Assembly: GCA_937903325.1 (NCBI GenBank)
Contig: CALCZR010000003.1
Coordinates: 3,898 to 67,897 of the forward strand
DNA from: an uncultured Candidatus Saccharibacteria bacterium
GTDB taxonomy: Bacteria; Patescibacteriota; Saccharimonadia; Saccharimonadales; AWTP1-31
DNA: 64,000 nucleotides
Direction: 5' to 3'
Below, piece after piece: positions 11,612-63,327 of this stretch. The number at the start of each line of letters is the position of its first letter. The first letter of the stretch is position 1. Made by a program: the position numbers and the translations under genes. The notes under the pieces were generated by a model. That model saw nothing but the letters and a program-made list of their open reading frames with translations, did no database searches and had not been told where the DNA came from.

Positions 11612-11617
11612 ATTCAT

Positions 11618-11954: not shown

Positions 11955-11956
11955 GT

Positions 11957-12288: not shown

Positions 12289-12448
12289 GCTCGTAGCTTT
12301 CATAGTCTATACTACGCTAGCTTTCCTGGCGCTGCCTTGGTGGCTAGCAATTGTTCTGACCTTTATCCTGCTTGGATGTATGCGAACTGAGAGGAAGCAG
12401 AAGATTGACAAGTCGGAAGAGGTTTCTCTGCAAGGGTTAAGCCTCTAG
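12251..12448 (+). CDS. small membrane protein (65 aa)
   Basis: AAAGGACAAG-ATG; hydrophobic LVAFIVYTTLAFLALPWWLAIVLTFILLGC. Confidence 0.5.
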   Translation: MKKLLTKILFLTKLVAFIVYTTLAFLALPWWLAIVLTFILLGCMRTERKQKIDKSEEVSLQGLSL

Positions 12449-12943
12449 ATATGCGATAGCTGCTTTGAGGTAGTCAGTGTTATCTCGATAATTACCGAGC
12501 CCTTGGTTGCATTGAGCACAGAGCAGCCCTCGTACTTTGCCTGTGGTGTGACAGTGATCGACGGCTAACCATTTAATAACGCCCGTACGATCTTTCTCAG
12601 TTTCGGGGTTACGACAGATTTGGCAGAGGCCGTCAAGAGCTTTAAACATTTCGTCATACTCTTCAACGGTGAGATTATACTTACATTTAAGACTAGACTT
12701 ACGAGCGATACTACGTCCGTCATACTTCAAGCGTCTTTCTTGGTGCCATTCAGCCGGTTGACGACTATAGTAATCCTTATAGTTATTAAGGATATTCGTA
12801 TTGCAGTAAAACCCATACTTGTTGCCATGCTTTTTGCGTGTAAGTTTTGTAGGACCGCAGATACGGCATACCGCAGTTCTAGCGTCATAGTCTATCTCAG
12901 TAAGATAGTGCTCACGATTCTTGCCCTGTTTTGTAATTTCCAT
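12437..12943 (-). CDS. recombination endonuclease VII-family nuclease (free-standing, opposite strand)
   Basis: CQICRNPE...LAVDHCHTTGKVRGLLCAQCNQGLGNYRDN matches the Endonuclease_7 signature; N-terminal CRICGP zinc knuckle. Confidence 0.8.
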   Translation of the reverse strand: MEITKQGKNREHYLTEIDYDARTAVCRICGPTKLTRKKHGNKYGFYCNTNILNNYKDYYSRQPAEWHQERRLKYDGRSIARKSSLKCKYNLTVEEYDEMFKALDGLCQICRNPETEKDRTGVIKWLAVDHCHTTGKVRGLLCAQCNQGLGNYRDNTDYLKAAIAYLEA

Positions 12944-25952: not shown

Positions 25953-26976
25953 TTACGTAGATGGCGTAGATGCACTCGTAATTGTTTCGACTCATCCTGA
26001 TTCGATGGGTCGGCAGTTCGTTGTAGATAAGTCAAGCGTCAATTATCCGAAGGTCAAGGAAGCTCTGAAGAAGTCTGATACGACTGTTCAGGAAATCGAA
26101 GACCTTATCACCCCTGCACGAGCAATTCAGAAGCAGATTGACAGTGAAGATTACCACGGTATCGAGATTATCGATGGTGTGCTTTACTACGAAGAGGAGC
26201 CTGTCATCGGCAGTCTTGCTACTCGTATTGTTCGGCTTCACTCCGAGGGTTTTGAGCTTGAACCTCTAGCGCTTTTTGCTGAGCGTCTCTGGCGTAACCC
26301 TGATCCTCGGGTTCGTGCAGAACTCGATCTCTTCCTAGAGGCTTGTGATCTTCCTATCACCCCTGATGGGTTCTTCCTGGCTTACAAGAAGGTCCGAGAT
26401 AATTACAAAGATATTCATTCTGGTACCTTTGATAACTCTGTTGGTACCACGCCGAGTATGCCACGAGATAAGGTCGATAATGACCGTAACCGTACCTGCT
26501 CGACTGGACTTCACTTCTGTTCGAAGAGCTACCTTCCGCAGTTTGGTGGCAGTTCTGGCTATCGTGTGATGATCGTCAAGGTTAGTCCTGAGGATGTTGT
26601 TGCTATTCCTTCCGATTACAAGAATGCTAAGGGCCGTGCCTGTAAGTATGAGGTTGTCGGTGAGATCGGTCACGAAGCTGCCCAGTCTCGTCAGTGGCCT
26701 GCGGTCAGTTCAGAATATGGTGCTCCACAGCCTGCAAAGATTGTCGGCGTCAGCAAGGCAACGAAGGCGGCTCCTAAGCCCGAGAAGAAAAAGGGTCCGA
26801 ACTCTGGTATTTACATTAATACTGTAGAGCTAGGCAAGCTTAGCCCCGTTTACTACGCTAATGGCGTGAAGAAGCACGGGACAGCCAAGGCTTGGGCCGA
26901 CTCTCATGGTTGGAGTCCTAGTACGGTACGTAATTGGAAGACTCGTCTTCTTCGTGCTGGCGCTAAGTTCGACTGA
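25939..26976 (+). CDS. rIIB: rIIB-like protein
   Basis: ITPDGFFLAYKKVRDNYKDIHSGTFDNSVG...CSTGLHFCSKSYLPQFGGS...VSPEDVVAIPSDYKNAKGRACKYEVV matches my recollection of the conserved T4 rIIB core; GTG start. Confidence 0.65.
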   Translation: MSKFSYVDGVDALVIVSTHPDSMGRQFVVDKSSVNYPKVKEALKKSDTTVQEIEDLITPARAIQKQIDSEDYHGIEIIDGVLYYEEEPVIGSLATRIVRLHSEGFELEPLALFAERLWRNPDPRVRAELDLFLEACDLPITPDGFFLAYKKVRDNYKDIHSGTFDNSVGTTPSMPRDKVDNDRNRTCSTGLHFCSKSYLPQFGGSSGYRVMIVKVSPEDVVAIPSDYKNAKGRACKYEVVGEIGHEAAQSRQWPAVSSEYGAPQPAKIVGVSKATKAAPKPEKKKGPNSGIYINTVELGKLSPVYYANGVKKHGTAKAWADSHGWSPSTVRNWKTRLLRAGAKFD

Positions 26977-33423: not shown

Positions 33424-33756
33424 ATGCAGACAACATTCACAGCTAGAGCAGAAGTAACACCGGATACTGAAGATGGACTGTATCGTATCGCCCTGATGAG
33501 AGTAATTGATGGTAGGAATTTTCCTCTCGTAAATCTTGCTGGTCAGACAGCGGCATCAGTCTACACAACTACGGGAATAAAAGTTGCGGTTCCGCCCGCA
33601 CGACCTGAAGATCCAATCGCCGCAGCTAAGAGCATCCTCAGGGAAGCGCTTGACAATCTCCCCACTTCTGGTGTAGTATCGAGAGATACCGTAGTCGATG
33701 CGTTTCTAGATTCCCTAAGTGAACTAGGCTACGAGAAGGAAGAAATTAATGAGTGA
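33424..33756 (+). CDS. hypothetical protein (110 aa)
   Basis: ORF; AAGGAACAAG-ATG. Confidence 0.55.
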   Translation: MQTTFTARAEVTPDTEDGLYRIALMRVIDGRNFPLVNLAGQTAASVYTTTGIKVAVPPARPEDPIAAAKSILREALDNLPTSGVVSRDTVVDAFLDSLSELGYEKEEINE

Positions 33757-34015: not shown

Positions 34016-35515
34016 GTGACGTTCTTACTACTTGACAAAGAATATGAAATTTATCCTAAAGAACTTGTAGGTGGTAAGGCGTCCAATCTTCACCAGATGA
34101 TCCACGATGGCTTGCCTGTGCCGCAAGCGTTTGTCATCAGTGTAGACGAATGTTTCAAACTCGATTTCACCAGTGAACTCCACGAACATAACTCAGAGTT
34201 TGGATTGAGACTGAGTAGTCACATTCGTTACCTATCAATGATGACAGGCAAGCAGTGGAACAGTGACTATAATCCCCTACTTGTCTCTGTAAGATCAGGT
34301 GCCCCCATCTCCATGCCAGGTATGATGGAGACAGTACTGAACATTGGTCTGACCAGAAATAATCTTGATGCTTTCGTAGAAGCTCGTGGTGCTGACAGAG
34401 CCTTCGGGTTAGACTGTTACCGTAGACTGATCCAGATGTATGGTGTGACAGTTCATGGTATCCCAGCCGAAGCGTTCAGTAGTGTATATAATTCTGCAAG
34501 GATTTTCTACGAGGAACTGGACGAGAAAGCAAACGAAAACCTTGTCCGTCTTTACGAAGGTATTTTCTTTCAGCACGTCGGTATCGTCTTCCCTGATGAT
34601 CCTAACGAACAACTTCTACAAGCATGTAACGCAGTGTTCCGGTCTTGGCACAGCGAGAAAGCCAAGACTTATCGTGACCTAGAAGGTATTCCTCATGATA
34701 TGGGTACCGCTGTCACTGTGCAAGAAATGGTCTTTGGTAACCTTGACCGTCAGTCAGCTACAGGCGTTGTGTTCACTCATGATCCTAATACTGGTAAGCT
34801 CGGATGGTATGGCGACTTTCTTGTCGGGGCTCAAGGCGAAGATGTTGTTGCCGGTACACATAAGGTTCTCCATATCCAAGAGATTCTACAGGACGAGAAC
34901 TTGCGTAAGGCCGGTAAGGATCTACAGGTTACAATCGGTGGACTCTTCCACCGCTACAAGAGTATTCTTGATGTGGAGTTTACTATCGAATCAGGTAAGC
35001 TTTACATCTTGCAGTACCGTCAAGCTAAATGTTCACGTCAGGCAACCATTCGTTCTCTGATGGATATGGCACGACAAGGCGATATCAGTGTGCTAGATGG
35101 CACCAGTAAGATGATGGAACTGCTGCCGCCTATTGACCGTGGTACTCAAGACCCTGGTAACTTGACGCTACTCGGTAAAGGTCTAGGTGCCACTGAAGGT
35201 ATTGTTGTAGGTCAGATTGCGATTGGTCGTGATACTGCACGGGAATACCAAGAGCAAGGTATCAGTTATATCTATGTAGCCCATGAGACTGCACCAGACG
35301 ACGTTGAACAAATGAAGGGTGCCGTAGGTATCCTGACAGCCTCAGGTGGTCTGGTATCTCATGCTGCGCTTATTGCTAGAGGCTGGAACAAGACCTGTGT
35401 TCTAGGATTTGACCGGATCAAAGTACTCGAAGATCATTTCACATTCAATGGTGAGATGTATAAGAATGGGTCTTTGATGAAAATTAATGGCTCCACGGGA
35501 GAAATATTCGCATGA
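34016..35515 (+). CDS. PPDK/PEP-synthase-like dikinase fragment: ATP-grasp plus phospho-His swivel domain, no PEP/pyruvate-binding domain
   Basis: GGKASNL; VSVRSGAPISMPGMMETVLNIGL; AVTVQEMVFGN..ATGVVFTHDPNTG..GAQGEDVVAGT; LDVEFTIESGKLYILQYRQAK; GILTASGGLVSHAALIARGWNKTCVLG (His449 = CAT 35360-35362). Ends 50 aa after the His. Confidence 0.85.
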   Translation: MTFLLLDKEYEIYPKELVGGKASNLHQMIHDGLPVPQAFVISVDECFKLDFTSELHEHNSEFGLRLSSHIRYLSMMTGKQWNSDYNPLLVSVRSGAPISMPGMMETVLNIGLTRNNLDAFVEARGADRAFGLDCYRRLIQMYGVTVHGIPAEAFSSVYNSARIFYEELDEKANENLVRLYEGIFFQHVGIVFPDDPNEQLLQACNAVFRSWHSEKAKTYRDLEGIPHDMGTAVTVQEMVFGNLDRQSATGVVFTHDPNTGKLGWYGDFLVGAQGEDVVAGTHKVLHIQEILQDENLRKAGKDLQVTIGGLFHRYKSILDVEFTIESGKLYILQYRQAKCSRQATIRSLMDMARQGDISVLDGTSKMMELLPPIDRGTQDPGNLTLLGKGLGATEGIVVGQIAIGRDTAREYQEQGISYIYVAHETAPDDVEQMKGAVGILTASGGLVSHAALIARGWNKTCVLGFDRIKVLEDHFTFNGEMYKNGSLMKINGSTGEIFA

Positions 35516-36642
35516 ACTATGAATTGTCTCCTATGGAGAAAAAATATATGAAGCTTTTGGATGAACTCGAAGAGTTAAATCCAGGGGATGTAGTTGAAGC
35601 TAGTCGGATTAGTATTGAGATCAAGAATCTTGAAGACAAGATGTGGCTCGATCAGCAAGGTGAAAATACTGAGGGCATATCAGTTACTTGCCCTGACTGC
35701 TTCAAGACGGATGTTATCCATGTACCATGCGGTGACTATGTATACGATTGTATCTGTGGTGACAGCACAGAAGAATACTACTGTGGATGGTGCGGTCAGA
35801 ACTTTGATCCTGGATCAGAGCCGCTGGAAGTACAAAGCCTAGACGACTGGATGAGCAAGTACCAGGATCAGGTACTAGGTGATCTAGGGTTTACACAAGA
35901 TCCTCTGCCACAGAAGCCGATGAAAGATTGTAACTCCACGAGTAGACATCTTCATCAGCCTGTAACCCTACCTAATGGTGTGATTGTGCATTGCACTGCT
36001 CACCAGAATGCTAACAAGATCAACCAGAAACCAGACTTTGGCCTGTATGCCGATAGTGCTTGGGTCAGGACTTGTAAGTGGCGTAACGAAATCATCAACT
36101 GGCCTGACTTTAATCTCCCGGCAGACCTTGATGTAGCACTCAACCAGATTGAAGATGCCTACAAGCGTTGTGAAGCTGGTGAACATGTTGACATCGGTTG
36201 CCTAGGTGCTCATGGTCGCACAGGAACTATCCTCGCAATTATGGTGCTCTTGGCTACCAAGGGTGACCTCAGTGGACCGAAAGCATGTTCATGGGTATGG
36301 GAAAACTATTGCACTCATGCTATTGAGAACAAGAACCAAGAATGGTATGTTGCTTATGCCGCAGGTTATCTCTTCGGCCATGACATCCCCGATGAACCGG
36401 CGAAGCCAGTATCTAGTCAGGCAAGTATTTGTCTCCCCGTAGAGCATTTTGCTATGTATTCAGGTGGGCGCAGAGTCTGTGTGAATCCGAAGTGCAGTTG
36501 GTGGGAGAAAGATATCATCGAACTTTACAATGACCAGAAGATCGCTGGCGTTCCAGCCGAGACACTTGCAGCAGACAACCGATACCCGACACTACTAGAA
36601 AAGTATCAGGTGAATGATGGATCAAACGATCAAATTAGTTGA
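35512..36642 (+). CDS. Zn-ribbon plus Cys-based phosphatase-fold (WPD loop / CX5R) protein
   Basis: ATGA-coupled to the dikinase. CPDC..PCGDYVYDCICG..YCGWCG (aa 60-94). INWPDFNLP (aa 195-203). 31 aa after the WPD Asp: DIGCLGAHGRTGTILAIMVLL (Cys230 = TGC 36199-36201), resembling HCxxGxGRTGT of small PTPs. Confidence 0.7.
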   Translation: MNYELSPMEKKYMKLLDELEELNPGDVVEASRISIEIKNLEDKMWLDQQGENTEGISVTCPDCFKTDVIHVPCGDYVYDCICGDSTEEYYCGWCGQNFDPGSEPLEVQSLDDWMSKYQDQVLGDLGFTQDPLPQKPMKDCNSTSRHLHQPVTLPNGVIVHCTAHQNANKINQKPDFGLYADSAWVRTCKWRNEIINWPDFNLPADLDVALNQIEDAYKRCEAGEHVDIGCLGAHGRTGTILAIMVLLATKGDLSGPKACSWVWENYCTHAIENKNQEWYVAYAAGYLFGHDIPDEPAKPVSSQASICLPVEHFAMYSGGRRVCVNPKCSWWEKDIIELYNDQKIAGVPAETLAADNRYPTLLEKYQVNDGSNDQIS

Positions 36643-38335
36643 AGATGAACTTAGTAATATCACTCAAGTTTATCAACTTGTTGATGATGAGTGGGTGTGC
36701 ATCGGCGATATAGCTAACGGGTTACCCGACTCGGCATTTGAATCAGCAATAGAAAACATGCAAAAGAAAGCATTTATGGACGATGACTACGAGATTGCAG
36801 ATATCCTTGCGATGCTAGAAGAAGATGATGACCTAGAAATCAATGAGACAGATGAAGATTACATCCTAGACGAGATTAAGAATGCACCAGAGCTACCACC
36901 TAAGTTCAGTAAAAGTGGATTCGATCTGTCATTCCTGCTTGAAGATGAGTACCGTGAACGGTGGCAAGCAAAAGATGGTTGGACTAAAGTATGGCCTGAC
37001 ATCGATCTGAAAATTGATCCTTGTATGGCTGCCGCAGATAATTATCTTCTGTTCGGTATTGCTAACAACTCTTTTGTAGAGATCGTGCCACGATACTTTC
37101 CTTCCGATGAAGAGATTCGTCTAGCTGGTGAACTACTTGAAGCAACCGAGGTAGAGATCGAACAACGTGTTCGTGATGTCATGGTTCTCCGTGACGATGA
37201 TCCTACTTTGAAACTTGAAGAACTGAATCGTGAAGCTGATACACAGTATCGTATCTTGATCGACCATCTCGATGAAAGCTTCCGTCAGTACAGTCACCTT
37301 GCTTGTGGTGGTGAGCTACGATACATGCTGAAGTCTGACCCTTTCTACAGTCAGGAACGACGCTGGGCTTGGACTCAATGGGCTTTTGTCTATGAGAAGT
37401 ATGGCATCAAAGGTCTAGAAACAATGACCAAGATGTTTAACGAGAATGGTTATGGTGCCTTTGGTGGTAAGAAATGGGCAGCCGCATCAGAGATCCTTCT
37501 CGGTCGTGAAGCAGGAACTCTTGGTCCTGATGAACTAACGAACAAGCAGTTATTTATCGACCGTGTGTTCACTCTAGAACATAACACTGGTTCTTTCTTG
37601 AACAAGATGGCCTGGGCCAATAATCGTACAGGTCGTGACGGTGCTAGCGGTCATTGGGCTACTATGAAAAATACTGTTCTTCCCGCTCACTGCTCTAACC
37701 CTGTTGACATTCGGACGATGTATCGTTATGCGAGTGAGAACGTACAGAATCTTCTGATGAAGTATTTCAGTCTTGCTGAACAGTATGGTCTAGCTATCAA
37801 CGGTATTTGGGAAGAAAAGAAACCTCAGAATGAACTTTTGAAAAGTACAACTGTAAAGAATAGTTCTGCTCAAATTCTTGACTGGTCAGATGTTCCTGAC
37901 TTCATCGAAGATGAGATTGAAGAAGAAGAAGCGCCTACTATTTATGAAGGTCCTCTAGATGCTATGATTGCCACCCAGCAAAAATTGCTAGGCCAACAGG
38001 AAGCTTTTCCTTTCTACGTAACGACTGCAGAGGGTAACCACCCAGGCATTGTCGTAGCCAGTGATCCTTATGCCGCCCCAGTCTATGCTACTGCGGAGAT
38101 GCCTAATGGTCCACAGCATGAGCTTACTAAGCCTTACCTAGAGGCAAATTGGACCGGAAAAATGTACACTGAAATAGGTGTACTCGAAACAGGTAATCCA
38201 TGGTTATATTGCTACGCTCCTGGCACGCTCGAACATTTTGATTTTGCAATCTACGATGACTATCCACCTGTGAATTTGATTCATGCTGTAATTGAATGTC
38301 ACCTTAAGACACTGGAGTCTAATGGATCTAAATAG
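36614..38335 (+). CDS. hypothetical large protein (573 aa), acidic N-terminus
   Basis: Long ORF overlapping the upstream gene by 29 nt. Conserved-looking core HLACGGELRYML...FGGKKWAAASEILLG...FTLEHNTGSFLNKMAW; no family recognised. Confidence 0.7.
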   Translation: MMDQTIKLVEDELSNITQVYQLVDDEWVCIGDIANGLPDSAFESAIENMQKKAFMDDDYEIADILAMLEEDDDLEINETDEDYILDEIKNAPELPPKFSKSGFDLSFLLEDEYRERWQAKDGWTKVWPDIDLKIDPCMAAADNYLLFGIANNSFVEIVPRYFPSDEEIRLAGELLEATEVEIEQRVRDVMVLRDDDPTLKLEELNREADTQYRILIDHLDESFRQYSHLACGGELRYMLKSDPFYSQERRWAWTQWAFVYEKYGIKGLETMTKMFNENGYGAFGGKKWAAASEILLGREAGTLGPDELTNKQLFIDRVFTLEHNTGSFLNKMAWANNRTGRDGASGHWATMKNTVLPAHCSNPVDIRTMYRYASENVQNLLMKYFSLAEQYGLAINGIWEEKKPQNELLKSTTVKNSSAQILDWSDVPDFIEDEIEEEEAPTIYEGPLDAMIATQQKLLGQQEAFPFYVTTAEGNHPGIVVASDPYAAPVYATAEMPNGPQHELTKPYLEANWTGKMYTEIGVLETGNPWLYCYAPGTLEHFDFAIYDDYPPVNLIHAVIECHLKTLESNGSK

Positions 38336-39263
38336 ACTAGAGAAACAAGGTATTCCCACTCTAGGTATCCTGACATGGTACTCGGTAGATAATGAAGCTT
38401 CTATTGGCTACACAGAGTTTCGTGATATCATTAAAGAGTATAATGCTCCGCTAACTATTATGAAGGCTCCGAAACCGGAGAATGTTTTCAGGCGAGCATG
38501 TGAAGCCATTGACTTTACTTTCGACACTGCAGATGATACTATCATTACTTTCTCTATGAAAGATGAAGGCTTCCATAAGACCAAGGTTACTCGGTCGCTC
38601 TACGCAGAGTATCAGCGTAAAGATGTGACAGTCAAGGTCAAGGTTGCAACTGCCGTACTAGATAAGAAAACCAAAGACATCGAATGGGAATATCATCCAG
38701 ATACGACAGATATTGGAGGAGATGCTCTACCTGATGCAGCAGCACTAGCAGAGTATTACATCGCTTGTTACATGGAAGAACATGCAGATGCGCTCTACGC
38801 TCTACCTATTCGTGAAAGTATTCGTAAAGCAATCGATGGTTCCCTATGTGGTGTCAGTCTTAAAACTGCTGGCGGGGGTGTCTATTTTATCCCCCGAGTG
38901 AACTTCGAAGAGTTTGAAGCTATGGCTCTAGCCAGTTACGATATACCTATGGTAGTTGTAGAGTATATTCCTTGCCTGGATAACCGTGATAGTCGTAAGA
39001 TGGTAGAAGATTATCTTTTCAACCATCTTCATAAAGAATTACTGACGATGGAGTCAGCTATAGATGATCTACAATTGCTACTCTTTTCTGAAGAGCAAGT
39101 TTCGGCTAAAAAAGTAACCGAGATTCAAGATATGATTGATGCCTACAAGTCAAGACTGGCAGCGTATACATGGATTTCTAGAAAGCATGACCTGTATACA
39201 TCTATTGAAGGTGTACAGCGAGAGTTAGATAGACTAGTAGATGGAGATGAAGAAGATGAATGA
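38322..39263 (+). CDS. hypothetical protein (313 aa)
   Basis: GGAG-N5-ATG 38322, 14-nt overlap; contains GGVYFIPRVNFEEFEAM; no firm family call. Confidence 0.65.
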   Translation: MDLNRLEKQGIPTLGILTWYSVDNEASIGYTEFRDIIKEYNAPLTIMKAPKPENVFRRACEAIDFTFDTADDTIITFSMKDEGFHKTKVTRSLYAEYQRKDVTVKVKVATAVLDKKTKDIEWEYHPDTTDIGGDALPDAAALAEYYIACYMEEHADALYALPIRESIRKAIDGSLCGVSLKTAGGGVYFIPRVNFEEFEAMALASYDIPMVVVEYIPCLDNRDSRKMVEDYLFNHLHKELLTMESAIDDLQLLLFSEEQVSAKKVTEIQDMIDAYKSRLAAYTWISRKHDLYTSIEGVQRELDRLVDGDEEDE

Positions 39264-39828
39264 TGAAGAGGAATACCCAGATCTAGAAGCTCTACTCCAG
39301 GATGAAGAGGAGGTGTTAGAAAAGAAACTCCTAACCGCAATATATGGCGACGACGAGGAAGAGGATGATGAAAATGAAGATGACGTCTACATCCCAACCA
39401 CAGATGACGAGATCGCAGCAGTAACAGCTTTGAAAGAAGCCATCAAGAATGCTAACGTTCAGAAAGTAGCAGCTAACCTGGACTCAGACCTAGCATCTTC
39501 TAATCCTATCGAAGGTTGGCTTGGTCTTATCAATACTCCAGTACAGCCACTGGAACTGACTGAGATCCCCGAGGGTTTCTCTCATCAGACCCTTGTCATT
39601 ATTGAAGTGTCAGCAATGAGTCCTTCTACTTTCATGGAACGAATGAGACGCTTTGTTGGTGGTCTGAATACTCCTGATACGATGAAAGCTAATGTCGTGA
39701 CTGTAACCGATGGTAAGATGTATGCTGGACTTACCTTCACTGGTGATAAGGCTGGCGGACGAGAAGTACCATTCAACAAAAATTTATGGAACGCTGTAAT
39801 CAGAGTTTCAGAAAAGGATATTGTATGA
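39256..39828 (+). CDS. hypothetical protein with extremely acidic N-terminal 55 aa
   Basis: NDEEEYPDLEALLQDEEEVLEKK...DDEEEDDENEDDVYIPTTDDE; start ATG 39256 (or 39241). Confidence 0.6.
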   Translation: MNDEEEYPDLEALLQDEEEVLEKKLLTAIYGDDEEEDDENEDDVYIPTTDDEIAAVTALKEAIKNANVQKVAANLDSDLASSNPIEGWLGLINTPVQPLELTEIPEGFSHQTLVIIEVSAMSPSTFMERMRRFVGGLNTPDTMKANVVTVTDGKMYAGLTFTGDKAGGREVPFNKNLWNAVIRVSEKDIV

Positions 39829-40028
39829 GCGTGGTTCACGATGTGTCACTAGATGGGTTACACGTAACCTGTACTTGTGGTGAACTCGATACCTATATTA
39901 CAGATGAAACATTTTACCTAGCTGTAGCACAGAGACATTCTCTGCATCTAGGTGTATGGCCATTCGAGCAACCTCTCGGTGAGAAGTACGACGGATGGCC
40001 TGAGAACGAAAAGGAGAACGATGACTGA
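39825..40028 (+). CDS. hypothetical protein (67 aa)
   Basis: AAGGATATTGT-ATG 39825, ATGA overlap. Confidence 0.5.
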   Translation: MSVVHDVSLDGLHVTCTCGELDTYITDETFYLAVAQRHSLHLGVWPFEQPLGEKYDGWPENEKENDD

Positions 40029-40950
40029 AGATGAAGCTAAAAAGGGTAACCTTTTCGATGTCCTAGAGTGGGAAAACTATATCGGTCAGGAGAAGATCAA
40101 GGAACGTCTACAAATCAAGATCCAAGCGGCGATGGCTCGATTCGAGCAGATGGATCATGCTCTTATCCTCGGGCAATCTGGTACAGGTAAGACAACTATC
40201 GCCAGACTTATTGCGAAGGAACATAACGCTTCTTTCCTCGACATCATGATCACCCCGAGTTTTACACCTAAGACTCTGGCCAAGATGCTGATTCAATTCG
40301 AAGAGGAAGAGGATGGTGGCATTGTTCTTCTTGACGAGCTTCACAACTTCACCAAGAAAGATCAGCACTACCTTTACTCTATCCTTCTTGATAACTGTAT
40401 CAGTTATGACTCTGGTAAGCGTCATTACTTTACTAAGCCTATCACGATCATCGCTGCAACTACGGACGAGAAGGATCTGACGCCTGCACTCAGAGGCCGT
40501 TTTGGTGCCCCGTATCGCCTCCGTGACTACACCGATAAAGAGATGGGGCAGATCGTAGAACGCATGGCTTACAAGGCCGGTCTAGACCCTACGATCGAAA
40601 CCTGTGTAGCACTAGGTCGTGCAAGTGCTGGCTCCCCAAGACAGGCAGCAGACCTTATCAAGACTGCACGAGATCTAGGAAGCATGGACCCAGGTCCGAT
40701 CCTAGAACTTTCAGAGATCACCAAGGACGGTCTGACCGTAGATCATATTGCTATCCTTGAAAGTCTCCGTAACCTTGGTAACATTGCCGGTCTAGAAAAC
40801 ATCAGTAACCACTCTGGTCGTGCCAGAGAAGATATTGTCACCCTAGAGAAGTTGCTCGTTAAGAAAGGGCTTATCGACATGGGTGGCAAAGGTCGTGAAT
40901 TAACCATCAAGGGTATGAAAGCCCTGAACGAAGCAGTAGGTAAAAAATGA
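40021..40950 (+). CDS. RuvB-like AAA+ ATPase
   Basis: AAGGAGAACG-ATG 40021. YIGQEKIKERL...MDHALILGQSGTGKTTIARLIA (Walker A), VLLDELH (Walker B), IIAATTDEKDLTPALRGRFG (sensor 1 / Arg finger region), collinear with RuvB. Confidence 0.8.
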   Translation: MTEDEAKKGNLFDVLEWENYIGQEKIKERLQIKIQAAMARFEQMDHALILGQSGTGKTTIARLIAKEHNASFLDIMITPSFTPKTLAKMLIQFEEEEDGGIVLLDELHNFTKKDQHYLYSILLDNCISYDSGKRHYFTKPITIIAATTDEKDLTPALRGRFGAPYRLRDYTDKEMGQIVERMAYKAGLDPTIETCVALGRASAGSPRQAADLIKTARDLGSMDPGPILELSEITKDGLTVDHIAILESLRNLGNIAGLENISNHSGRAREDIVTLEKLLVKKGLIDMGGKGRELTIKGMKALNEAVGKK

Positions 40951-41711
40951 GATCATATGTTTCACAGCTAACCATTGAGCTAGATGACATCACAACTGTA
41001 GGTCGGCTCTGGCCTATCCGTCAGAGTGAAAGTAAATTCAAGCTCTGCACGAAAGACTACGATCCAGTTCATCAGATTTACCAAGATGATGAAGACAACA
41101 CTTACCGTAAAGGTGAGCTGATCTACGGTCGGCCTGTTAAGGGTCAGTATAAACTTGATCCGGTTGGTGACATCGAAGAGATCAAAGATGCTCGTACTTC
41201 TACACTAGAGAAAAATCTTCTGGTTCTCAGTGCTCATGATGCAAATAGAGTTAATGAGTATCTCTACCCGGCTGATACACAAGGCTATGTCTTTCAACCA
41301 GTCAGACTGAACTCTTCAGGCCATGTCGTGCCAGATAAGCTCAACGAAATCAGACATAACATCATCAACGTGCTTCTACGTGATGCTAATGTTGTGCTGC
41401 TTGGTAAATGTAACATGCAGAATCATGAAGGTCTATTCCGTCTCGGTCTGTATCGTGGTATGATTACTGTACAGAAGCAGTTGTACCCAGAAGACTTGAA
41501 TGACTTTGATTTCGAAACTCCGATCAGTAACCCTAAGCTAGCGGAGAAAGCCCAGGAGCTAGCGAAAGAACTTGTCCGAGACTTCGAACCTGAAGCCTAT
41601 GAGAACGAGATCAAGCGACGTATCGAAATGATCGCTACAGGGAACTACCAGATTAAGCCTGCTGATCCTGTACTGGATCTAATCAAGGCGATGGAAGAAT
41701 TCATGTCGTAA
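40947..41711 (+). CDS. ku: Ku-like DNA end-binding protein
   Basis: Collinear by eye with bacterial Ku: MRSY..TIEL..., PVKGQYKLDP, VLSAHDANRVNEYLYPADTQGYVFQP (cf. FV....D..YFD..YYL.P), LYPEDLNDFDF, PKLAEKAQELAKELVRDFEPEAYENEIKRRIEMI. Confidence 0.65.
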   Translation: MRSYVSQLTIELDDITTVGRLWPIRQSESKFKLCTKDYDPVHQIYQDDEDNTYRKGELIYGRPVKGQYKLDPVGDIEEIKDARTSTLEKNLLVLSAHDANRVNEYLYPADTQGYVFQPVRLNSSGHVVPDKLNEIRHNIINVLLRDANVVLLGKCNMQNHEGLFRLGLYRGMITVQKQLYPEDLNDFDFETPISNPKLAEKAQELAKELVRDFEPEAYENEIKRRIEMIATGNYQIKPADPVLDLIKAMEEFMS

Positions 41712-42900: not shown

Positions 42901-43022
42901 TGACTAATAGCAAATTTTGGCTTATGCTTAGCTCTATAGCTGCAGGTCTATGCTTTGAAAACATTCAAACCGCAGTGACCCAAGGGGGAAAAATTCTTTT
43001 GGCTTATTCTTCCACTTGGTAA
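42897..43022 (+). CDS. possible small membrane peptide (41 aa)
   Basis: ATGA junction; FWLMLSSIAAGLCF hydrophobic core; last + strand ORF before the inverted module. Confidence 0.3.
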   Translation: MMTNSKFWLMLSSIAAGLCFENIQTAVTQGGKILLAYSSTW

Positions 43023-48255: not shown

Positions 48256-48464
48256 TGACAGAAAAAGGTCTACTAGAAACCATGCATGAAACGATTGAAG
48301 CACTAGCTGGAACAGTAGATAGTTTAACCAAAACAGTTGAATCACTTCAGACTCGGTTGCATGAACATATCACAATCAAGTCACCTTGGAATCTGAAGAT
48401 CGAAGATCAGATTACAGAACTTCAGAATAGACTAGACCGAGCAGAGGACCCGAGTTACCCATGA
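48255..48464 (+). CDS. hypothetical coiled-coil protein (69 aa)
   Basis: ORF; TAATG junction. Confidence 0.55.
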   Translation: MTEKGLLETMHETIEALAGTVDSLTKTVESLQTRLHEHITIKSPWNLKIEDQITELQNRLDRAEDPSYP

Positions 48465-49429
48465 AGAAACTAGGCGTCGTCGTAGGACGATTTCAGACAG
48501 AAATTCTGACCGCCACACACGTCGATTTAATCGATACTTCGCTCAGAGAAAATGATCATACGCTTATTGTGGTTGGAGTTGGACCGTTACCAACAACGGC
48601 TCGTAACCCACTCTCTTTCAACATGAGAGCAGCTATGATCGCTGATCATCTAACAGATACCGGGCATAGCACAGACACGCAAGTTAACATCATTGAACAG
48701 TTAGCGGATCATCCTGACGACAGGATCTGGTCAAATAGCCTAGACACTCTTATTTATGGCGCTGCAATGCAGCTAACCAATGAAGAAGTAGAAGTCACTC
48801 TGTACCACGGGCGGGATTCGTTCCGAGAAGTATATAGTGGGAACTACCCTAACTTTCATGAAATTGATGAGCATCCTCTAGACTCTGCGACCAGACGACG
48901 GGAAAATATTGGCAGGTACGATTGGCCCTATGTTCCTAAACGTTTTCGAGAAGGTGTTATCTGGGCTAACCAGAATCGTTTCCCTACGGTCTACTCTTGT
49001 GTAGATGCGGCTGTAGTATGGAACGAGTACTCAGATAAGATGAGACTGACTAACAAATACCTACTTCTTATCACGAAAGATATTGCAGAAGGTTACATGT
49101 TCCCTGGTGGATTCGCCGAGCTTAACTCAACAGATGAGGATGATGCCCGCCGTGAAGTCATGGAAGAAACCGGCATCGACATGTCTTTCGTTCACGCAGA
49201 ATGGCTCGGATCATTTACACAGGATGATTGGCGTTACCGTTCAGAAGTAGATGAAATTCGTACTCGTCTATTCTTATTTGAACCATATGGCCCACTGAGT
49301 GAACGACCTAAAGCGGTAGGTGCTGACGATGCAGCTACGGCACAGTGGGTTAACATTAAAGATCTGAAAGTTGAAGACTTTAACAAGTGCCACCGGGCAC
49401 TATTTGAAAGGCTATTAGAAGAACTATGA
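48461..49429 (+). CDS. bifunctional NMN adenylyltransferase / Nudix hydrolase (NadM-Nudix / NatV-like)
   Basis: N-terminus VVVGRFQTEILTATHVDLI (nucleotidyltransferase GRFxP.H.GH-like, degenerate). C-terminal Nudix box GGFAELNSTDEDDARREVMEETGI (GX5EX7REUXEEXGU). Confidence 0.75.
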   Translation: MKKLGVVVGRFQTEILTATHVDLIDTSLRENDHTLIVVGVGPLPTTARNPLSFNMRAAMIADHLTDTGHSTDTQVNIIEQLADHPDDRIWSNSLDTLIYGAAMQLTNEEVEVTLYHGRDSFREVYSGNYPNFHEIDEHPLDSATRRRENIGRYDWPYVPKRFREGVIWANQNRFPTVYSCVDAAVVWNEYSDKMRLTNKYLLLITKDIAEGYMFPGGFAELNSTDEDDARREVMEETGIDMSFVHAEWLGSFTQDDWRYRSEVDEIRTRLFLFEPYGPLSERPKAVGADDAATAQWVNIKDLKVEDFNKCHRALFERLLEEL

Positions 49430-50784
49430 ATCAAGAACTAATTGACCAGCTAAATCATAACATTATACTCAGTGTCGATTCATACAAGCTTTCACACTGG
49501 AAAATGCAACAGAAGGACCTTGAGAACATGGTCCTCTACTGGGAGATGCGTAAAGGTGCGAAGTATGAAGAGGCTGTTTTCTTTGGACTACAAGCTATCC
49601 TACTGAAGCATTTCACCGGGTGCCGTGTTGACGCTAACAAGATCCGTGAAGCCAAGCAATTCATTAACCCTCACATGGGACCCGGTGTCTTTAATGAGGA
49701 AGGTTGGACCTATATCTCAGAAAAGCTTGGTGGTCGTCTACCCGTACGTATTCAGGCTGTACCTGAAGGTTCTGTAAACCCGATCAACAGCGTTCTTTTT
49801 CACGTACAAGTTACGGATGAAAATTGTGCATGGCTAGCAGAGCCACTAGAAACAATCTTGTCTCACGTCTGGTACACTTCGACAGTAGCTACACTTTCTC
49901 GTGAAGTGAAGAAAGACTACTCGAAGTACATGAATGAGACGCTCGGTGGAGTTACTGGGATTGATTTCATGCTCCACGATTTCGGTGGGCGTGGCGTTAC
50001 CTGCTTTGAACAGATGGGTATAGGTGGTATGGCCCACCTTGTAAACTTCCAAGGTACCGATACTGTGCCTGGTCTGAAGGCTGCGTACGATTACTACGAT
50101 GCCGACCTGTCTACTCTCGGTTTTTCTGTGCCTGCTTCTGAGCACGCAGTCATGACTTCTCTTGGTGCTGACGGCGAGCTTGCAATCATTGAGCAGATCC
50201 TTGATGAGTTCCCTACAGGAATTGTCAGTGTTGTTGGTGATTCCTATGACATTGTGAACTTTGTTAAGAACATTGTTGGCACTCAGCTTCACGACCGCAT
50301 CATGAGCCGTGATGGCAAATTTGTTGTGCGACCTGATTCACCTACAGAAGAGTGGCCGATGGCTGCTGACCAGATGGTTTGGATCTACCAGACTCTATGG
50401 TATGCGTTCGGTGGTACTGAGTCACCTACTGGCTTTAAGATCCTTGATGACCATGTTGGTGTCCTCTGGGGTGATGGTATCGACCGTGGTGGTGTGCATC
50501 ATATCCTTATGGCGCTGAAGAACGCTGGCTTTGCTACGACGAACGTGTCTGGCATGGGCGGCGGTCTACTTCAGAAAGTAAACCGTGACACTCAGCGTTG
50601 TGTTATCAAGTGCTCCGCTCAGAAGCGGTCAGGTGTCTGGCACGATGTTCACAAGGAAACTTTCGGCAAAGTCTCTAAGGCTGGTCGGTTCCTTGAGCTT
50701 GACTTGCCTGTAGTCTTTGAGAACGGTGAACTTGTCCGCCGTTATACATTTGATGAGGTTCGAGAGAACGCTAAACTGCTATGA
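49426..50784 (+). CDS. nadV: nicotinamide phosphoribosyltransferase (NAMPT/NadV)
   Basis: NIILSVDSYKLSHW N-terminal signature, about 450 aa, ATGA-coupled to the NMNAT gene. Confidence 0.85.
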   Translation: MNQELIDQLNHNIILSVDSYKLSHWKMQQKDLENMVLYWEMRKGAKYEEAVFFGLQAILLKHFTGCRVDANKIREAKQFINPHMGPGVFNEEGWTYISEKLGGRLPVRIQAVPEGSVNPINSVLFHVQVTDENCAWLAEPLETILSHVWYTSTVATLSREVKKDYSKYMNETLGGVTGIDFMLHDFGGRGVTCFEQMGIGGMAHLVNFQGTDTVPGLKAAYDYYDADLSTLGFSVPASEHAVMTSLGADGELAIIEQILDEFPTGIVSVVGDSYDIVNFVKNIVGTQLHDRIMSRDGKFVVRPDSPTEEWPMAADQMVWIYQTLWYAFGGTESPTGFKILDDHVGVLWGDGIDRGGVHHILMALKNAGFATTNVSGMGGGLLQKVNRDTQRCVIKCSAQKRSGVWHDVHKETFGKVSKAGRFLELDLPVVFENGELVRRYTFDEVRENAKLL

Positions 50785-51342: not shown

Positions 51343-51486
51343 ATGAGTAAAGTATTTCAATTGCATTTAGATATCGATGCGACCCTGGCTGTTGAAGAGA
51401 TTTGGCCTGACGGTGAGCTAGAGGAAAAGAAGCAAAGAGTTCTAGATCTAGCTGAAGAACTAGGCATCGAGATTGATTTCCTATGA
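51343..51486 (+). CDS. hypothetical small acidic protein (47 aa, below track cutoff)
   Basis: AAGGATGACT-ATG 51343; stop forms ATGA with the ligase start. Confidence 0.45.
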   Translation: MSKVFQLHLDIDATLAVEEIWPDGELEEKKQRVLDLAEELGIEIDFL

Positions 51487-52607
51487 CAGAATTTCTACCG
51501 ATCCTTTACAAGAAAACCTCCACCGGCGCTACGCAGGTATGGCAGCGTGAAATCGATGGTGATAGATACCGTTCAATCTCTGGTCAGATCGATGGAGTAA
51601 AGCACCCCTCTGGTTGGACAACGGCCACACCTAAGAATGAAGGCAAAGCGAACGCTACCACAGCTGAAGAACAGGCCCGTCTAGAGTGTGAGTCGGCTTA
51701 CAAGATTAAGCTAGCCCAAGGTGGATACCACGAGTCGGTTGATGATATCGATACCACCAAGTTCTTTAAGCCTATGCTTGCGAAAGCTTATGACGAGCGA
51801 CCAATCAAGGACGATGAGTGGGGCGAGATCTATAGCCAACCTAAGCTCGACGGTGTGCGTTGCATCGCTACCTCAGAGGGATTGTTCTCTCGTCAAGGTA
51901 AGCCAATTGATTCGTGCCCTCATATTATTGAGGCTCTTGAAGATTACTTTCATATTCGCCCCGACTCTATTCTTGATGGAGAACTTTATGCTGACCATCT
52001 CAGCGATAACTTCAACGAGATTATTTCACTGGTGCGTAAACAAAAGCCAACAGCAGATCATTTCGCTAAGACAGCAAAAGCCATCAAATACCATGTATAC
52101 GATATCCCCTCCGAAGAATTTGGGTTTCGTGGCCGCTACATGCGTCTCATCGGTACCGAAGGTCTTTGGCCTGTAGATGGACCAGTTGTTCTAGTTGAAA
52201 CAACCGGTGTCGAAAATAGCGATCATCTGGATGCTTTGAACGCTGAGTATATCGAAGATGGTTACGAAGGTCAGATGGTTCGACGTGACGGTCCCTATAA
52301 AAACGGACGTAGCTTTGACCTCCTGAAGCGCAAAGAGTTCCTCGACCAAGAGTTCACTGTAATCTCAGTAGACGAAGGCATTGGTAACCGTGCTGGTATG
52401 GCTGGGTTTATCACCTATGAGCTTGGTGATGGTCGCACTTTCAAGTCAGGTATCAAAGGTAACTGGCAGTATGCTACTCAGCTTCTTAAGGACGCTGATA
52501 TTTATGTCGGTGGACAGGGCACAGTGCGGTACTTTCAGTTGACCCCTGAAGGCAAGCCACGCTTTCCTGTAACAGTAGCCTTGTATGAAGGTAAAAGGGA
52601 CATCTAA
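51483..52607 (+). CDS. ATP-dependent DNA ligase
   Basis: SQPKLDGVRC (motif I KxDG), YHVYDI (III), EGQMVRR (IV), DLLKRKEF (V); C-terminal OB-like region. Confidence 0.85.
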   Translation: MTEFLPILYKKTSTGATQVWQREIDGDRYRSISGQIDGVKHPSGWTTATPKNEGKANATTAEEQARLECESAYKIKLAQGGYHESVDDIDTTKFFKPMLAKAYDERPIKDDEWGEIYSQPKLDGVRCIATSEGLFSRQGKPIDSCPHIIEALEDYFHIRPDSILDGELYADHLSDNFNEIISLVRKQKPTADHFAKTAKAIKYHVYDIPSEEFGFRGRYMRLIGTEGLWPVDGPVVLVETTGVENSDHLDALNAEYIEDGYEGQMVRRDGPYKNGRSFDLLKRKEFLDQEFTVISVDEGIGNRAGMAGFITYELGDGRTFKSGIKGNWQYATQLLKDADIYVGGQGTVRYFQLTPEGKPRFPVTVALYEGKRDI

Positions 52608-63288: not shown

Positions 63289-63327
63289 GATTACTCCTAT
63301 CGTTAATTACCGATTATAACGACAGAT

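What the first reader, a model, noticed from the sequence alone, without database searches (positions are those of the whole stretch)
40021..41711. Phage-encoded Ku homologue coupled to a RuvB-like AAA+ ATPase, with an ATP-dependent DNA ligase elsewhere in the window
ORF 40947-41711 is collinear by eye with bacterial Ku. The shared features are the N-terminal beta-strand region, the PVKGQY motif, the ...YVFQP motif, LYPEDL, and a helical C-terminal arm. It is ATGA-coupled to a clear RuvB-like ATPase with Walker A GQSGTGKTT, Walker B LLDELH and ALRGRFG.

Ku is rare in phages. In mycobacteriophages Corndog and Omega it recruits host LigD to circularise the genome by NHEJ. Here the phage also carries its own ATP-dependent ligase (51483-52607). 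A Ku-RuvB pairing is not something I recognise as described. It also hints at an actinobacterial-type host.
Basis: partly seen in the sequence, partly recalled or inferred. Interest (0 to 1): 0.55.

Follow-up and report, generated by a model that had tools for sequence, protein, structure and literature searches.

The report
Divergent phage Ku beside RuvB-like ATPase
An uncultured large phage encodes a real but highly diverged Ku DNA-end-binding protein, translationally coupled to a RuvB-like motor, and relatives add a compact DNA ligase to the same gene cluster, so some phages may carry their own end-joining kit.

Summary
ORF 40947-41711 (254 aa) is a true Ku homologue, although Pfam's Ku model misses it. 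A family profile hits solved bacterial Ku at E=9e-19. The AlphaFold model's best PDB matches are B. subtilis and M. tuberculosis Ku, then Ku70/80. Distant family members pass Pfam's Ku threshold.

ORF 40021-40950 is a RuvB-like AAA+ ATPase with all catalytic motifs intact. It shares a clade-wide 7-residue deletion in the hairpin that cellular RuvB uses to dock RuvA. The ATGA overlap between the two genes is real.

The family is large (689 clusters at 50% identity), known only from metagenomes, and annotated only as hypothetical. In about 17 of 20 informative loci, RuvB-like lies directly upstream of Ku-like.

The pair is part of a bigger recurrent set: DUF6744, RuvB-like, Ku-like, a compact ATP-dependent DNA ligase, and MoxR plus VWA. 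Ku-ligase-MoxR-VWA is the most persistent core. This window's lineage lost the compact ligase, MoxR and VWA and keeps a separate Lig E-type ligase.

The Ku C-terminus retains the helix that binds LigD in mycobacteria. Function (end joining or end protection), genome termini and host remain untested. I rate it a new variant of a known kind, of moderate to good interest.

The parts
40947..41711 (+). Divergent Ku-family protein (254 aa): beta-barrel core, low-confidence bridge region (residues ~24-80), helical C-terminal arm ending in a conserved DLxxAL helix
   Evidence: No Pfam hit on its own. Family profile vs PDB: Mtb Ku 8.6e-19, Bsu Ku 3.8e-17, covering positions 17-256. AF2 model pLDDT 78. 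Foldseek top hits 9vnq, 9i91 and 8v53 (bacterial Ku) at 1e-12 to 1e-9, then Ku70/80. In the viral library only Dylan Ku and one COG1273 Ku homologue match. Distant family members pass the Pfam Ku gathering score.
40021..40950 (+). RuvB-like AAA+ ATPase (309 aa): N-terminal P-loop domain, lid, C-terminal winged helix; phage-specific clade
   Evidence: Pfam RuvB_N 5e-25, RuvB_C 1.9e-9, AAA_lid_4 4e-4. PDB sequence hits are all RuvB, 4e-27 over residues 18-299. The phage clade P0162-P0217 is separated from cellular RuvB at ~30% identity. Walker A/B, sensor 1, Arg finger and sensor 2 are conserved, and the presensor-1 hairpin has a clade-wide 7-residue deletion.
39786..40028 (+). u80, small conserved ORF whose stop overlaps the RuvB-like start
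   Evidence: Overlap ATGACTGA. Orthologues in L001, L008, L010, L014, L027, L028. No family hit.
39241..39828 (+). u195, acidic N-terminus plus a C-terminal domain; conserved between DUF6744 and RuvB-like in the closer relatives
   Evidence: Orthologues in more than 10 loci. No Pfam hit.
38292..39263 (+). DUF6744 protein; constant member of the Ku/RuvB-like neighbourhood; confident but unmatched fold
   Evidence: Pfam DUF6744 1.3e-14. Present in every cluster variant with enough sequence. AF2 pLDDT 88. No PDB fold match, best E=0.02 and TM 0.1. No PDB sequence match.
34016..38335 (+). Upstream part of the same overlapping-ORF block: PPDK_N/PEP-utilizers dikinase-like (34016-35515), CX5R phosphatase-like u376 (35512-36642), u573 (36614-38335). 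Collinear with the Ku/RuvB-like genes in the closer relatives; functional link to them not shown
   Evidence: Pfam PPDK_N 5e-37 and PEP-utilizers 3e-15. Motif GCLGAHGRTG in u376, and relatives' orthologues hit PTP families. Collinearity in L001, L004, L006, L008, L010, L014, L027, L028.
51483..52607 (+). Phage ATP-dependent DNA ligase (374 aa, Lig E/viral minimal type), candidate sealing partner; 10 kb from Ku-like
   Evidence: Pfam DNA_ligase_A_M 7e-13 plus OB_2. phrog_114 4e-70. PDB 4d05 5.5e-13 and Chlorella virus ligase 3e-7. An orthologue in L001-L003 coexists there with the compact Ku-adjacent ligase.
12437..12943 (-). Endonuclease VII (Holliday-junction resolvase), possible partner of the RuvB-like motor under the rival recombination reading
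   Evidence: Pfam Endonuclease_7 8.4e-24. In L001-L003 the orthologous gene sits immediately upstream of RuvB-like.

Best explanation
ORF 40947-41711 is a member of a large, previously unannotated, phage-borne branch of the Ku family.

By homology it should form a homodimeric ring that threads onto the ends of linear double-stranded phage DNA. This is inferred from the fold and from solved bacterial Ku structures.

Its C-terminal helix corresponds to the 'minimal C-terminus' that recruits and stimulates LigD in M. tuberculosis. I therefore expect it to recruit a ligase. In relatives that would be the compact ATP-dependent ligase encoded next to Ku. In this phage it would be the Lig E-type ligase at 51483-52607, or a host ligase.

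The most likely job is joining or holding phage DNA ends. That could mean circularising the injected genome or resealing breaks made by host nucleases. End protection would be a built-in side effect of ring binding.

The RuvB-like ATPase is co-translated with Ku. It is an active-looking hexameric dsDNA translocase that has lost the RuvA-docking hairpin. I infer that it works on the same DNA substrate with a non-RuvA adaptor, which could be Ku itself, DUF6744, u195 or u80. It might, for example, load at Ku-marked ends or move Ku and DNA relative to each other.

Shown: Ku and RuvB-like identities, intact ATPase motifs, the hairpin deletion, the translational coupling, and the conserved neighbourhood.
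Inferred: ring formation, ligase recruitment, the end-joining role, and any physical Ku/RuvB-like interaction.
For: Ku identity:
- Profile vs solved Ku: E=1e-7 and E=9e-19 over positions 17-256.
- Foldseek top hits are Bsu and Mtb Ku, then Ku70/80, and phage Dylan Ku in the viral library.
- Bridging members pass Pfam PF02735 at 32.8 and 28.4 bits against a cut-off of 25.

C-terminal motif: window PVLDLIKAMEEFMS and the family consensus DLxxAL align to Mtb Ku E246-V259 (the PDB chain is offset by 22 residues). NMR and mutagenesis show those residues bind LigD and are needed for stimulated ligation (bioRxiv 10.64898/2025.12.12.693941).

Ligase linkage: a 250-285-aa ligase lies 0.3-3.5 kb downstream of Ku-like in about 20 of the loci held, including L001, L004, L008-L010, L018, L021, L030, L032, L033 and L035. 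It passes Pfam DNA_ligase_A_M at 59.8 bits against a cut-off of 26.2.

RuvB-like linkage:
- Directly upstream of Ku-like in about 17 of 20 informative loci.
- 4-nt overlaps also in L004 and L006, at 32-36% Ku identity.
- The neighbourhood survives rearrangement in L030, L032 and L034.
- It spans loci of 39-69% GC.

ATPase: catalytic motifs intact and hairpin deletion clade-wide.

Precedent for phage Ku use in genome circularisation: Pitcher et al. 2006, as cited in PMC12848934.
Against: - No biochemical data exist.
- Genome termini and packaging type are unknown, so the need for circularisation cannot be judged.
- This window's lineage has lost the Ku-adjacent ligase, and its remaining ligase is 10 kb away.
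- That ligase has no LigD-type polymerase domain, which is the principal documented target of the Ku C-terminus.
- Conserved adjacency within one viral lineage may partly reflect inherited gene order rather than function.
- RuvB-like is separable from Ku in L021, L032 and L035.
- The bridge region that closes the Ku ring is modelled at low confidence (pLDDT 50-66), and dimerisation could not be modelled.
- The phage has RecA, endonuclease VII and rIIA/B. That is a T4-like toolkit compatible with recombination-driven replication, which needs no circularisation.
Confidence: 0.5

Rival explanations
1. Gam-like end protection. The Ku-like ring simply caps the linear phage DNA ends to block host RecBCD/AddAB-type exonucleases, as Mu Gam does, with no ligation step. 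RuvB-like would be unrelated or would only help to clear the caps.
For: The Ku fold is confirmed. The phage is a large lytic type with many counter-defence and repair genes, including NAD+ salvage, RNA ligase and rIIA/B. This window has no Ku-adjacent ligase. Mu Gam is an accepted Ku-like end binder (bioRxiv 10.1101/2022.02.08.479637 abstract).
Against: Family-wide, Ku-like is most persistently linked to an ATP-dependent ligase. It retains the LigD-binding-type C-terminal helix. It is full-length bacterial-Ku-like at ~254 aa rather than the shorter Gam type, and no Pfam Gam family hit appeared at E<=10.
Confidence: 0.25
2. Two independent functions sharing an operon. RuvB-like is a branch-migration motor for homologous recombination or concatemer resolution, working with RecA and endonuclease VII. 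Ku-like acts separately. The adjacency is inherited gene order within one phage lineage.
For: Endonuclease VII sits immediately upstream of RuvB-like in L001-L003 and inside the cluster in L030. RecA and an endonuclease VII gene are in the window. RuvB-like and Ku-like are separated or unpaired in L021, L032 and L035, and L029 and L031 show RuvB-like with no Ku-like in the locus held. Whole-block collinearity also includes unrelated-looking genes such as the dikinase and phosphatase.
Against: 4-nt start/stop overlaps are maintained in lineages down to 32% Ku identity. The neighbourhood persists through rearrangements and across 39-69% GC. No RuvA was found among the window ORFs scanned. The RuvA-docking hairpin is truncated in the whole clade, so the motor needs some other DNA-targeting partner.
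Confidence: 0.2
3. Clamp and clamp-loader pair. The 254-aa protein is a ring-shaped processivity factor and the AAA+ protein loads it, as the PHROG label 'clamp loader' suggests.
For: The best PHROG hits of the ATPase are 'clamp loader of DNA polymerase' families, 1e-21. The 254-aa size fits PCNA-like clamps. The phage has a Pol III alpha, and no clamp was seen among the ORFs scanned.
Against: The Foldseek and profile top hits of the 254-aa protein are all Ku, and no PCNA or beta-clamp appears among the 50 top matches listed. The ATPase has the RuvB N, lid and C-terminal winged-helix domains, and RuvB outscores every other PDB family by 20 orders of magnitude.
Confidence: 0.02

Closest known systems
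Bacterial Ku (Mku / YkoV; PDB 8v53, 9i91, 9vnq) of the two-component Ku-LigD NHEJ system
   Same: Same fold and same length class (~250-270 aa). It is collinear over nearly the whole protein (profile positions 17-256, E=9e-19). The core motifs are conserved, and the 'minimal C-terminus' helix that binds LigD is retained.
   Different: Only 13-17% identity in the structural alignments. It falls below Pfam Ku detection. It has no extended basic C-terminal tail. It is encoded by a phage. No LigD with polymerase and nuclease domains is nearby. The partners are a minimal ligase (in relatives), a RuvB-like ATPase, DUF6744, and MoxR plus VWA.
Mycobacteriophage Corndog/Omega Ku (clusters O and J), used with host LigD to circularise genomes with short cos ends
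   Same: It is a phage-encoded Ku. Phage Dylan Ku (cluster O) is the best viral structural match, E=8e-11.
   Different: Those proteins are close relatives of host Ku and cluster with actinobacterial Ku (PMC11936186). They rely on host LigD. This family gives no tblastn match to any of 50,697 deposited phage records. It forms its own large clade, and its relatives carry their own ligase. Termini are unknown here.
Phage Mu Gam (Ku-like end-binding protein that blocks exonucleases)
   Same: A phage-encoded, distant Ku relative that binds DNA ends, so an end-protection role is plausible.
   Different: No match to a Pfam Gam family. The protein is longer, with a full bacterial-Ku-type C-terminal arm, and the family is linked to a ligase.
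RuvAB branch-migration motor (RuvB; PDB 7pbl, 1ixr)
   Same: The ATPase has RuvB's three-domain architecture and all its catalytic residues.
   Different: ~30% identity. It forms a separate phage clade. The presensor-1 beta-hairpin, the RuvA-docking element according to published RuvA-RuvB structures (my own knowledge), has a 7-residue deletion. No ruvA was detected among the window ORFs scanned. It is coupled to Ku rather than to RuvA.
Ku-dependent helicases (mycobacterial UvrD1; eukaryotic WRN with Ku70/80), cited from my own knowledge and not retrieved here
   Same: They set a precedent for Ku recruiting or stimulating a DNA motor at ends. This is the nearest functional analogy for a Ku/RuvB-like pair.
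   Different: Those motors are SF1/SF2 helicases, not AAA+ ring translocases. They are not operon-coupled with Ku.

Membership tests
Ku family (Ku70/Ku80 beta-barrel, PF02735 / COG1273) | Significant sequence match to the Ku core | tested here: met
   The single sequence gives no Pfam hit at E<=1. Family profiles hit solved bacterial Ku at 1e-7 and 9e-19. Family members P0155 and P0152 pass the PF02735 gathering score.
Ku family (Ku70/Ku80 beta-barrel, PF02735 / COG1273) | Ku fold: beta-barrel core plus helical C-terminal arm | tested here: met
   AF2 model pLDDT 78. The Foldseek top 50 are all Ku chains, with TM 0.55-0.64 to bacterial Ku.
Ku family (Ku70/Ku80 beta-barrel, PF02735 / COG1273) | Dimeric ring that encircles dsDNA ends | not testable with these tools
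   No multimer modelling is available. The bridge region (residues ~24-80) has pLDDT 50-66 in the monomer model.
Bacterial two-component NHEJ (Ku + LigD) | Conserved minimal C-terminal helix of Ku that binds LigD | tested here: met
   The family C-terminus aligns with Mtb Ku E246-V259. Binding itself is untested.
Bacterial two-component NHEJ (Ku + LigD) | Multidomain LigD (ligase + primase-polymerase +/- phosphoesterase) encoded with Ku | tested here: not met
   The window ligase has only nucleotidyltransferase and OB domains. Relatives' Ku-adjacent ligases are 250-285 aa and ligase-only. No primase-polymerase was found among the window ORFs scanned, though the scan was not exhaustive.
Corndog/Omega-type phage NHEJ circularisation | Short cohesive genome termini requiring Ku-assisted ligation | not testable with these tools
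   The window and all loci are internal fragments. No termini or terminase were identified.
RuvB (Holliday-junction branch-migration ATPase) | RuvB_N P-loop, lid and C-terminal winged helix with intact Walker A/B, sensor 1, Arg finger and sensor 2 | tested here: met
RuvB (Holliday-junction branch-migration ATPase) | Full-length presensor-1 beta-hairpin and a RuvA partner | tested here: not met
   All 17 phage-clade sequences have a 7-residue deletion relative to 7 cellular RuvB. No RuvA was found among about 45 window ORFs scanned.
Mu Gam family | Match to a Gam profile | tested here: not met
   No Gam family appears among Pfam hits of any of the 18 family members at E<=10.
Sliding clamp / clamp loader | PCNA or beta-clamp fold, and an RFC/DnaX-type loader | tested here: not met
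   The PHROG 'clamp loader' labels reflect generic AAA+ similarity.

The most novel reading that the evidence does not exclude
A self-contained viral end-joining and end-remodelling machine. A phage-specific Ku ring recruits a phage ligase through its LigD-type C-terminal helix. Dedicated AAA+ motors then service it. The RuvB-like hexamer, which has lost its RuvA dock, would be loaded at or by Ku to translocate on the DNA. In relatives, a MoxR-VWA pair would remodel or extract the topologically trapped Ku ring, a prokaryotic-virus analogue of p97-mediated Ku removal. DUF6744, which has a confident but unmatched fold, would be the missing adaptor. Such a system would let large lytic phages reseal restriction or CRISPR breaks, or circularise, independently of the host.
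Probability: 0.15. Interest if true: 0.85.

Novelty: new variant of a known kind. Interest (0 to 1): 0.6.

Why it matters
Until now, phage Ku meant about a dozen actinophage proteins recently borrowed from their hosts, plus the distant Gam. This finding reveals a separate, large, phage-borne Ku lineage: 689 clusters at 50% identity, invisible to Pfam and annotated only as 'hypothetical'.

It sits in a conserved neighbourhood with a compact DNA ligase, a RuvA-independent RuvB-like motor, MoxR-VWA and a protein of unmatched fold.

If the cluster is functional, three things follow:
- It would be the first phage-autonomous end-joining system, with direct relevance to how phages survive restriction and CRISPR cleavage.
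- It would make two open questions testable in a minimal system: how Ku rings are handled by motor proteins, and how they are removed from DNA.
- It would offer compact Ku plus ligase pairs for genome-engineering tools.

Tried and rejected
1. Direct Pfam and PHROG scans of the 254-aa ORF found no Ku hit. This was shown to be a sensitivity problem, not absence of homology.
2. tblastn of Ku-like and DUF6744 against 50,697 phage records gave no match.
3. The clamp/clamp-loader reading prompted by PHROG labels was rejected.
4. The Gam reading found no profile support.
5. DUF6744 and u573 profiles against PDB sequences gave nothing below E=0.1.
6. The DUF6744 AF2 model (pLDDT 88) had no meaningful Foldseek match against the PDB, so its role stays unknown.
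7. The promoter and terminator scan was uninformative. Promoter-like sites were at shuffle level. There was one 10/12 match at 33650-33679 upstream of the block and a terminator-like hairpin at 42980-43002.
9. Literature searches for DUF6744, Ku+RuvB in phages and Ku+MoxR/vWA returned no description of this cluster. The library is incomplete, so absence is not proof.
10. Host assignment did not resolve. MAG bin labels (Saccharibacteria, Coxiellaceae) are probably mis-binned phage contigs. WhiB occurs only in two relatives.
11. Genome termini could not be examined, because only internal fragments are held.
Full report
**1. Observation**

The two ORFs are real and lie on the + strand: 40021-40950 (309 aa from the ATG) and 40947-41711 (254 aa).
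- The junction reads aaaaaATGAgat, so the Ku-like ATG overlaps the RuvB-like TGA by 4 nt.
- The RuvB-like ATG overlaps the stop of the preceding 80-aa ORF, in the sequence ATGACTGA.
- Public gene calls use the same RuvB-like start. P0162 is 309 aa, 100% identical, and seen on 112 contigs.
- ORF 51483-52607 is an ATP-dependent DNA ligase. It matches DNA_ligase_A_M at 7e-13 plus OB_2 and phrog_114 at 4e-70. It is of the minimal Lig E/viral kind (4d05 at 5.5e-13, Chlorella virus ligase at 3e-7) and has no LigD polymerase module.

**2. Is it Ku?**

Taken alone, the 254-aa protein hits nothing in Pfam at E<=1 or in PHROGs. None of its first 18 homologues carries a Pfam domain. Four independent lines nevertheless establish Ku homology.
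- **Profile against solved structures.** A profile of the 18 homologues (A1) finds M. tuberculosis Ku (8v53, 9i91) at E=1.1e-7 and B. subtilis Ku (9vnq) at 3e-4 among all PDB sequences. A 66-sequence profile (A2) raises this to 8.6e-19 and 3.8e-17, covering profile positions 17-256.
- **Predicted fold.** An AlphaFold2 model (pLDDT 78, core above 90) has as its best PDB matches 9vnq (1e-12), then 9i91, 9ig8 and 8v53. Dozens of Ku70/80 chains follow, and every one of the 50 top matches listed is a Ku chain.
- **Viral structure library.** Only mycobacteriophage Dylan Ku (8e-11) and one 'COG1273 Ku-homolog' of an uncultured phage (1e-9) match.
- **Bridge through distant members.** An exhaustive HMM search finds 689 representative clusters at E<=1e-3, of which 119 are at E<=1e-30, nearly all ~250-280 aa. 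The more distant ones reach Pfam's own Ku threshold: P0155 at 32.8 bits and P0152 at 28.4 bits, against a cut-off of 25.

The low-confidence part of the model (residues ~24-80) corresponds to the bridge that closes the ring in Ku dimers. Dimer modelling was not possible with these tools.

**3. The C-terminus**

The family ends in a conserved helix with the consensus DLxxAL. The window protein reads PVLDLIKAMEEFMS. In one search this aligns with chain residues 268-281 of 8v53, which are native Mtb Ku E246-V259 (EDVSDLLAKLEASV). The numbering offset of 22 was checked against the named residues.

NMR and mutagenesis identify exactly this 'minimal C-terminus' (E246, V248, S258, K260) as the LigD-binding, ligation-stimulating element (bioRxiv 10.64898/2025.12.12.693941).

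The phage protein stops right after it. It therefore lacks the variable basic extension of bacterial Ku.

**4. The ATPase**

- Pfam gives RuvB_N 5e-25, RuvB_C winged helix 1.9e-9 and the RuvB lid 4e-4.
- The 18 best distinct PDB sequences are all RuvB, with E=4e-27 over residues 18-299. The next class (VCP and Cdc6) is at 1e-6. The PHROG 'clamp loader' labels are therefore generic AAA+ similarity.
- Homologue searching shows a phage clade of about 56 clusters (P0162-P0217, 32-100% identity). A score gap separates it from cellular RuvB at ~30% identity.
- I aligned 17 phage-clade and 7 cellular sequences. Walker A, Walker B, sensor 1, the arginine finger and sensor 2 are all retained. Every phage sequence has the same 7-residue deletion in the presensor-1 beta-hairpin.
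- From published RuvA-RuvB structures (my own knowledge, not retrieved here), that hairpin is where RuvA domain III docks.
- No RuvA was found among about 45 window ORFs scanned.

The motor looks active, but it is unlikely to use RuvA.

**5. Context**

The window is a replication, nucleotide-metabolism and counter-defence region of a large uncultured phage. It encodes:
- Pol III alpha, RecA and DnaB.
- rIIA/rIIB, an intein-containing NMNAT and PnuC.
- NAMPT, NUDIX and an RNA ligase.
- Endonuclease VII.

Its Pol III alpha is only 38-40% identical to the nearest deposited phages, which are actinophages.

Scripts over 35 related loci gave two results.

First, in the closer relatives an eight-gene, overlapping-ORF block is collinear down to 32% Ku identity. 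Its order is: PPDK-like dikinase, CX5R phosphatase-like u376, u573, DUF6744, u195, u80, RuvB-like, Ku-like.
- RuvB-like lies directly upstream of Ku-like in about 17 of 20 informative loci.
- Often the overlap is 4 nt, as in L004 and L006.
- Sometimes there are 0.2-2.2 kb insertions, as in L001, L016, L019, L020 and L028, or a Band_7 gene in L034.

Second, across the wider family the recurrent set is {DUF6744, RuvB-like, Ku-like, a 250-285-aa ligase, bpMoxR AAA+, a ~540-aa VWA protein}, and the order varies.

| Loci | Gene order |
|---|---|
| L004, L018 | duf - ruvB - ku - lig - mox - vwa |
| L030 | ruvB - ku - lig - mox - vwa - endoVII - duf |
| L032 | ku - lig - mox - vwa - duf ... ruvB |
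| L021, L035 | ku - lig - mox - vwa, with no RuvB-like in the 6 kb and 3.2 kb held upstream |

- The compact ligase passes Pfam DNA_ligase_A_M at 59.8 bits against a cut-off of 26.2.
- The most persistent partner of Ku-like is therefore a ligase, a minimal NHEJ-like pair, with MoxR and VWA alongside. RuvB-like and DUF6744 are frequent but separable members.
- The window's sub-lineage (window, L006, L012, L014/L027) has lost the compact ligase, MoxR and VWA. L001-L003 carry both the compact ligase and an orthologue of the window's 374-aa ligase.
- Loci range from 39 to 69% GC, so the neighbourhood is kept in phages of very different hosts. That argues for functional linkage beyond inherited order, though it does not prove it.

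**6. Mechanism**

Best-supported reading (confidence about 0.5): a Ku ring binds phage dsDNA ends and recruits a ligase through its LigD-type C-terminal helix. This joins or holds ends, for genome circularisation or for resealing host-nuclease breaks. The co-translated RuvB-like translocase acts on the same substrate through a non-RuvA adaptor.
- **Shown:** the protein identities, the motifs, the translational coupling and the neighbourhood.
- **Inferred:** ring formation, ligase recruitment, the biological role and any Ku/RuvB-like contact.

Rivals:
- Gam-like end protection only (0.25).
- Two independent functions that merely share an operon, with RuvB-like serving RecA/endonuclease VII recombination (0.2). 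Supporting this, endonuclease VII abuts RuvB-like in L001-L003.
- Clamp and clamp loader (rejected).

The thematic fit with other 'repair what the host breaks' genes in the window (NAD+ salvage, RNA ligase plus kinase) is suggestive only.

**7. What could not be settled**

- **Host.**
  - Weak actinobacterial hints: actinophage-like Pol III alpha, a Phage_VG64-family gene at E=6e-55, and WhiB in L004 and L021.
  - Against these: there is no WhiB in the window, which is 45% GC. The MAG bin labels, Saccharibacteria and Coxiellaceae, are probably mis-binned phage contigs.
- **DUF6744.** The model is confident (pLDDT 88), but it has no PDB fold match and no PDB sequence match.

**8. Novelty**

- Known viral Ku proteins are 11 actinophage sequences that cluster with host Ku (PMC11936186). 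Their known role is LigD-dependent circularisation at cos ends (Pitcher 2006, as cited in PMC12848934).
- A jumbo-phage survey notes that phage RuvC is not coupled to a RuvB-like ATPase. It mentions MoxR-vWA only as assembly chaperones (PMC7824862).
- I found no description of this Ku lineage or of its RuvB-like, ligase, MoxR and VWA neighbourhood. In public records the protein is labelled 'hypothetical'.

Because it is a bona fide Ku-family member in a new genomic and probably mechanistic setting, I rate it a new variant of a known kind, with interest 0.6.

Noticed in passing
window 34016-38335 (+): A dikinase-like protein (PPDK_N + PEP-utilizers, 499 aa) overlaps by ATGA a 376-aa protein with a CX5R phosphatase motif (GCLGAHGRTG). 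A highly conserved 573-aa unknown follows. The trio is collinear with DUF6744/RuvB-like/Ku-like in many relatives. It resembles a dikinase plus dual-specificity phosphatase pair, with unknown substrate.
   Followed up: partly
window 38292-39263 (+); also L001-L035: The DUF6744 protein has a confident AlphaFold model (pLDDT 88) with no PDB fold or sequence match. It is present in every variant of the Ku/RuvB-like/ligase/MoxR/VWA neighbourhood.
   Followed up: partly
L004 6557-10411; L018, L021, L030, L032, L035: In relatives, a compact (250-285 aa) ATP-dependent DNA ligase, a bpMoxR AAA+ ATPase and a ~540-aa VWA protein follow Ku-like. This trio is absent from the window. Eukaryotic Ku70/80 carry an N-terminal vWA domain, so a standalone VWA next to a viral Ku is curious.
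   Followed up: partly
window 19009-21705 and 48461-50784 (+): NAD+ salvage set: PnuC-like transporter, an NMNAT interrupted by an intein with an HNH endonuclease, a NUDIX protein and NAMPT. It looks like a phage NAD+-reconstitution counter-defence pathway.
   Followed up: no
window 59384-60228 (-): A dATP/dGTP diphosphohydrolase N-terminal domain protein sits next to a MazG-family pyrophosphohydrolase. This could hint at nucleotide-pool editing or a modified base. PurZ was not looked for.
   Followed up: no
window 61501-63942 (-): A DnaB-like helicase C-terminal fragment (63328-63942) lies beside a 595-aa homing/HNH endonuclease-like ORF (phrog_3339, 2e-99). The replicative helicase gene appears to be invaded or split.
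   Followed up: no
window 23868-26976 (+): An rIIA/rIIB-like pair (phrog_612 1e-88; phrog_609 5e-64), typical of T4-like lytic phages.
   Followed up: no
window 3361-3834 (+), 423-1016 (+), 10963-11454 (+), 11618-11694 (+): A Phage_VG64 (mycobacteriophage family) protein at E=6e-55, a Fic-domain protein, a SpoU-type RNA methylase and a tRNA-Ile(TAT).
   Followed up: no
L016 3783-5989; L020 4895-5986; L019 1558-2357; L028 7403-7989: Insertions of 0.6-2.2 kb between RuvB-like and Ku-like occur in several relatives. In L016 the RuvB-like match itself is fragmented, possibly by a mobile element or intein. These insertions were not characterised.
   Followed up: no
L032 (NCBI GCA_002900785.1 contig PPFU01259901.1): Gene calls are unusually sparse around the cluster, with large uncalled gaps at 4803-6044 and 9930-13766, even though the HMMs find VWA and DUF6744 there. 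This may reflect frameshifts, an alternative genetic code or poor assembly.
   Followed up: no
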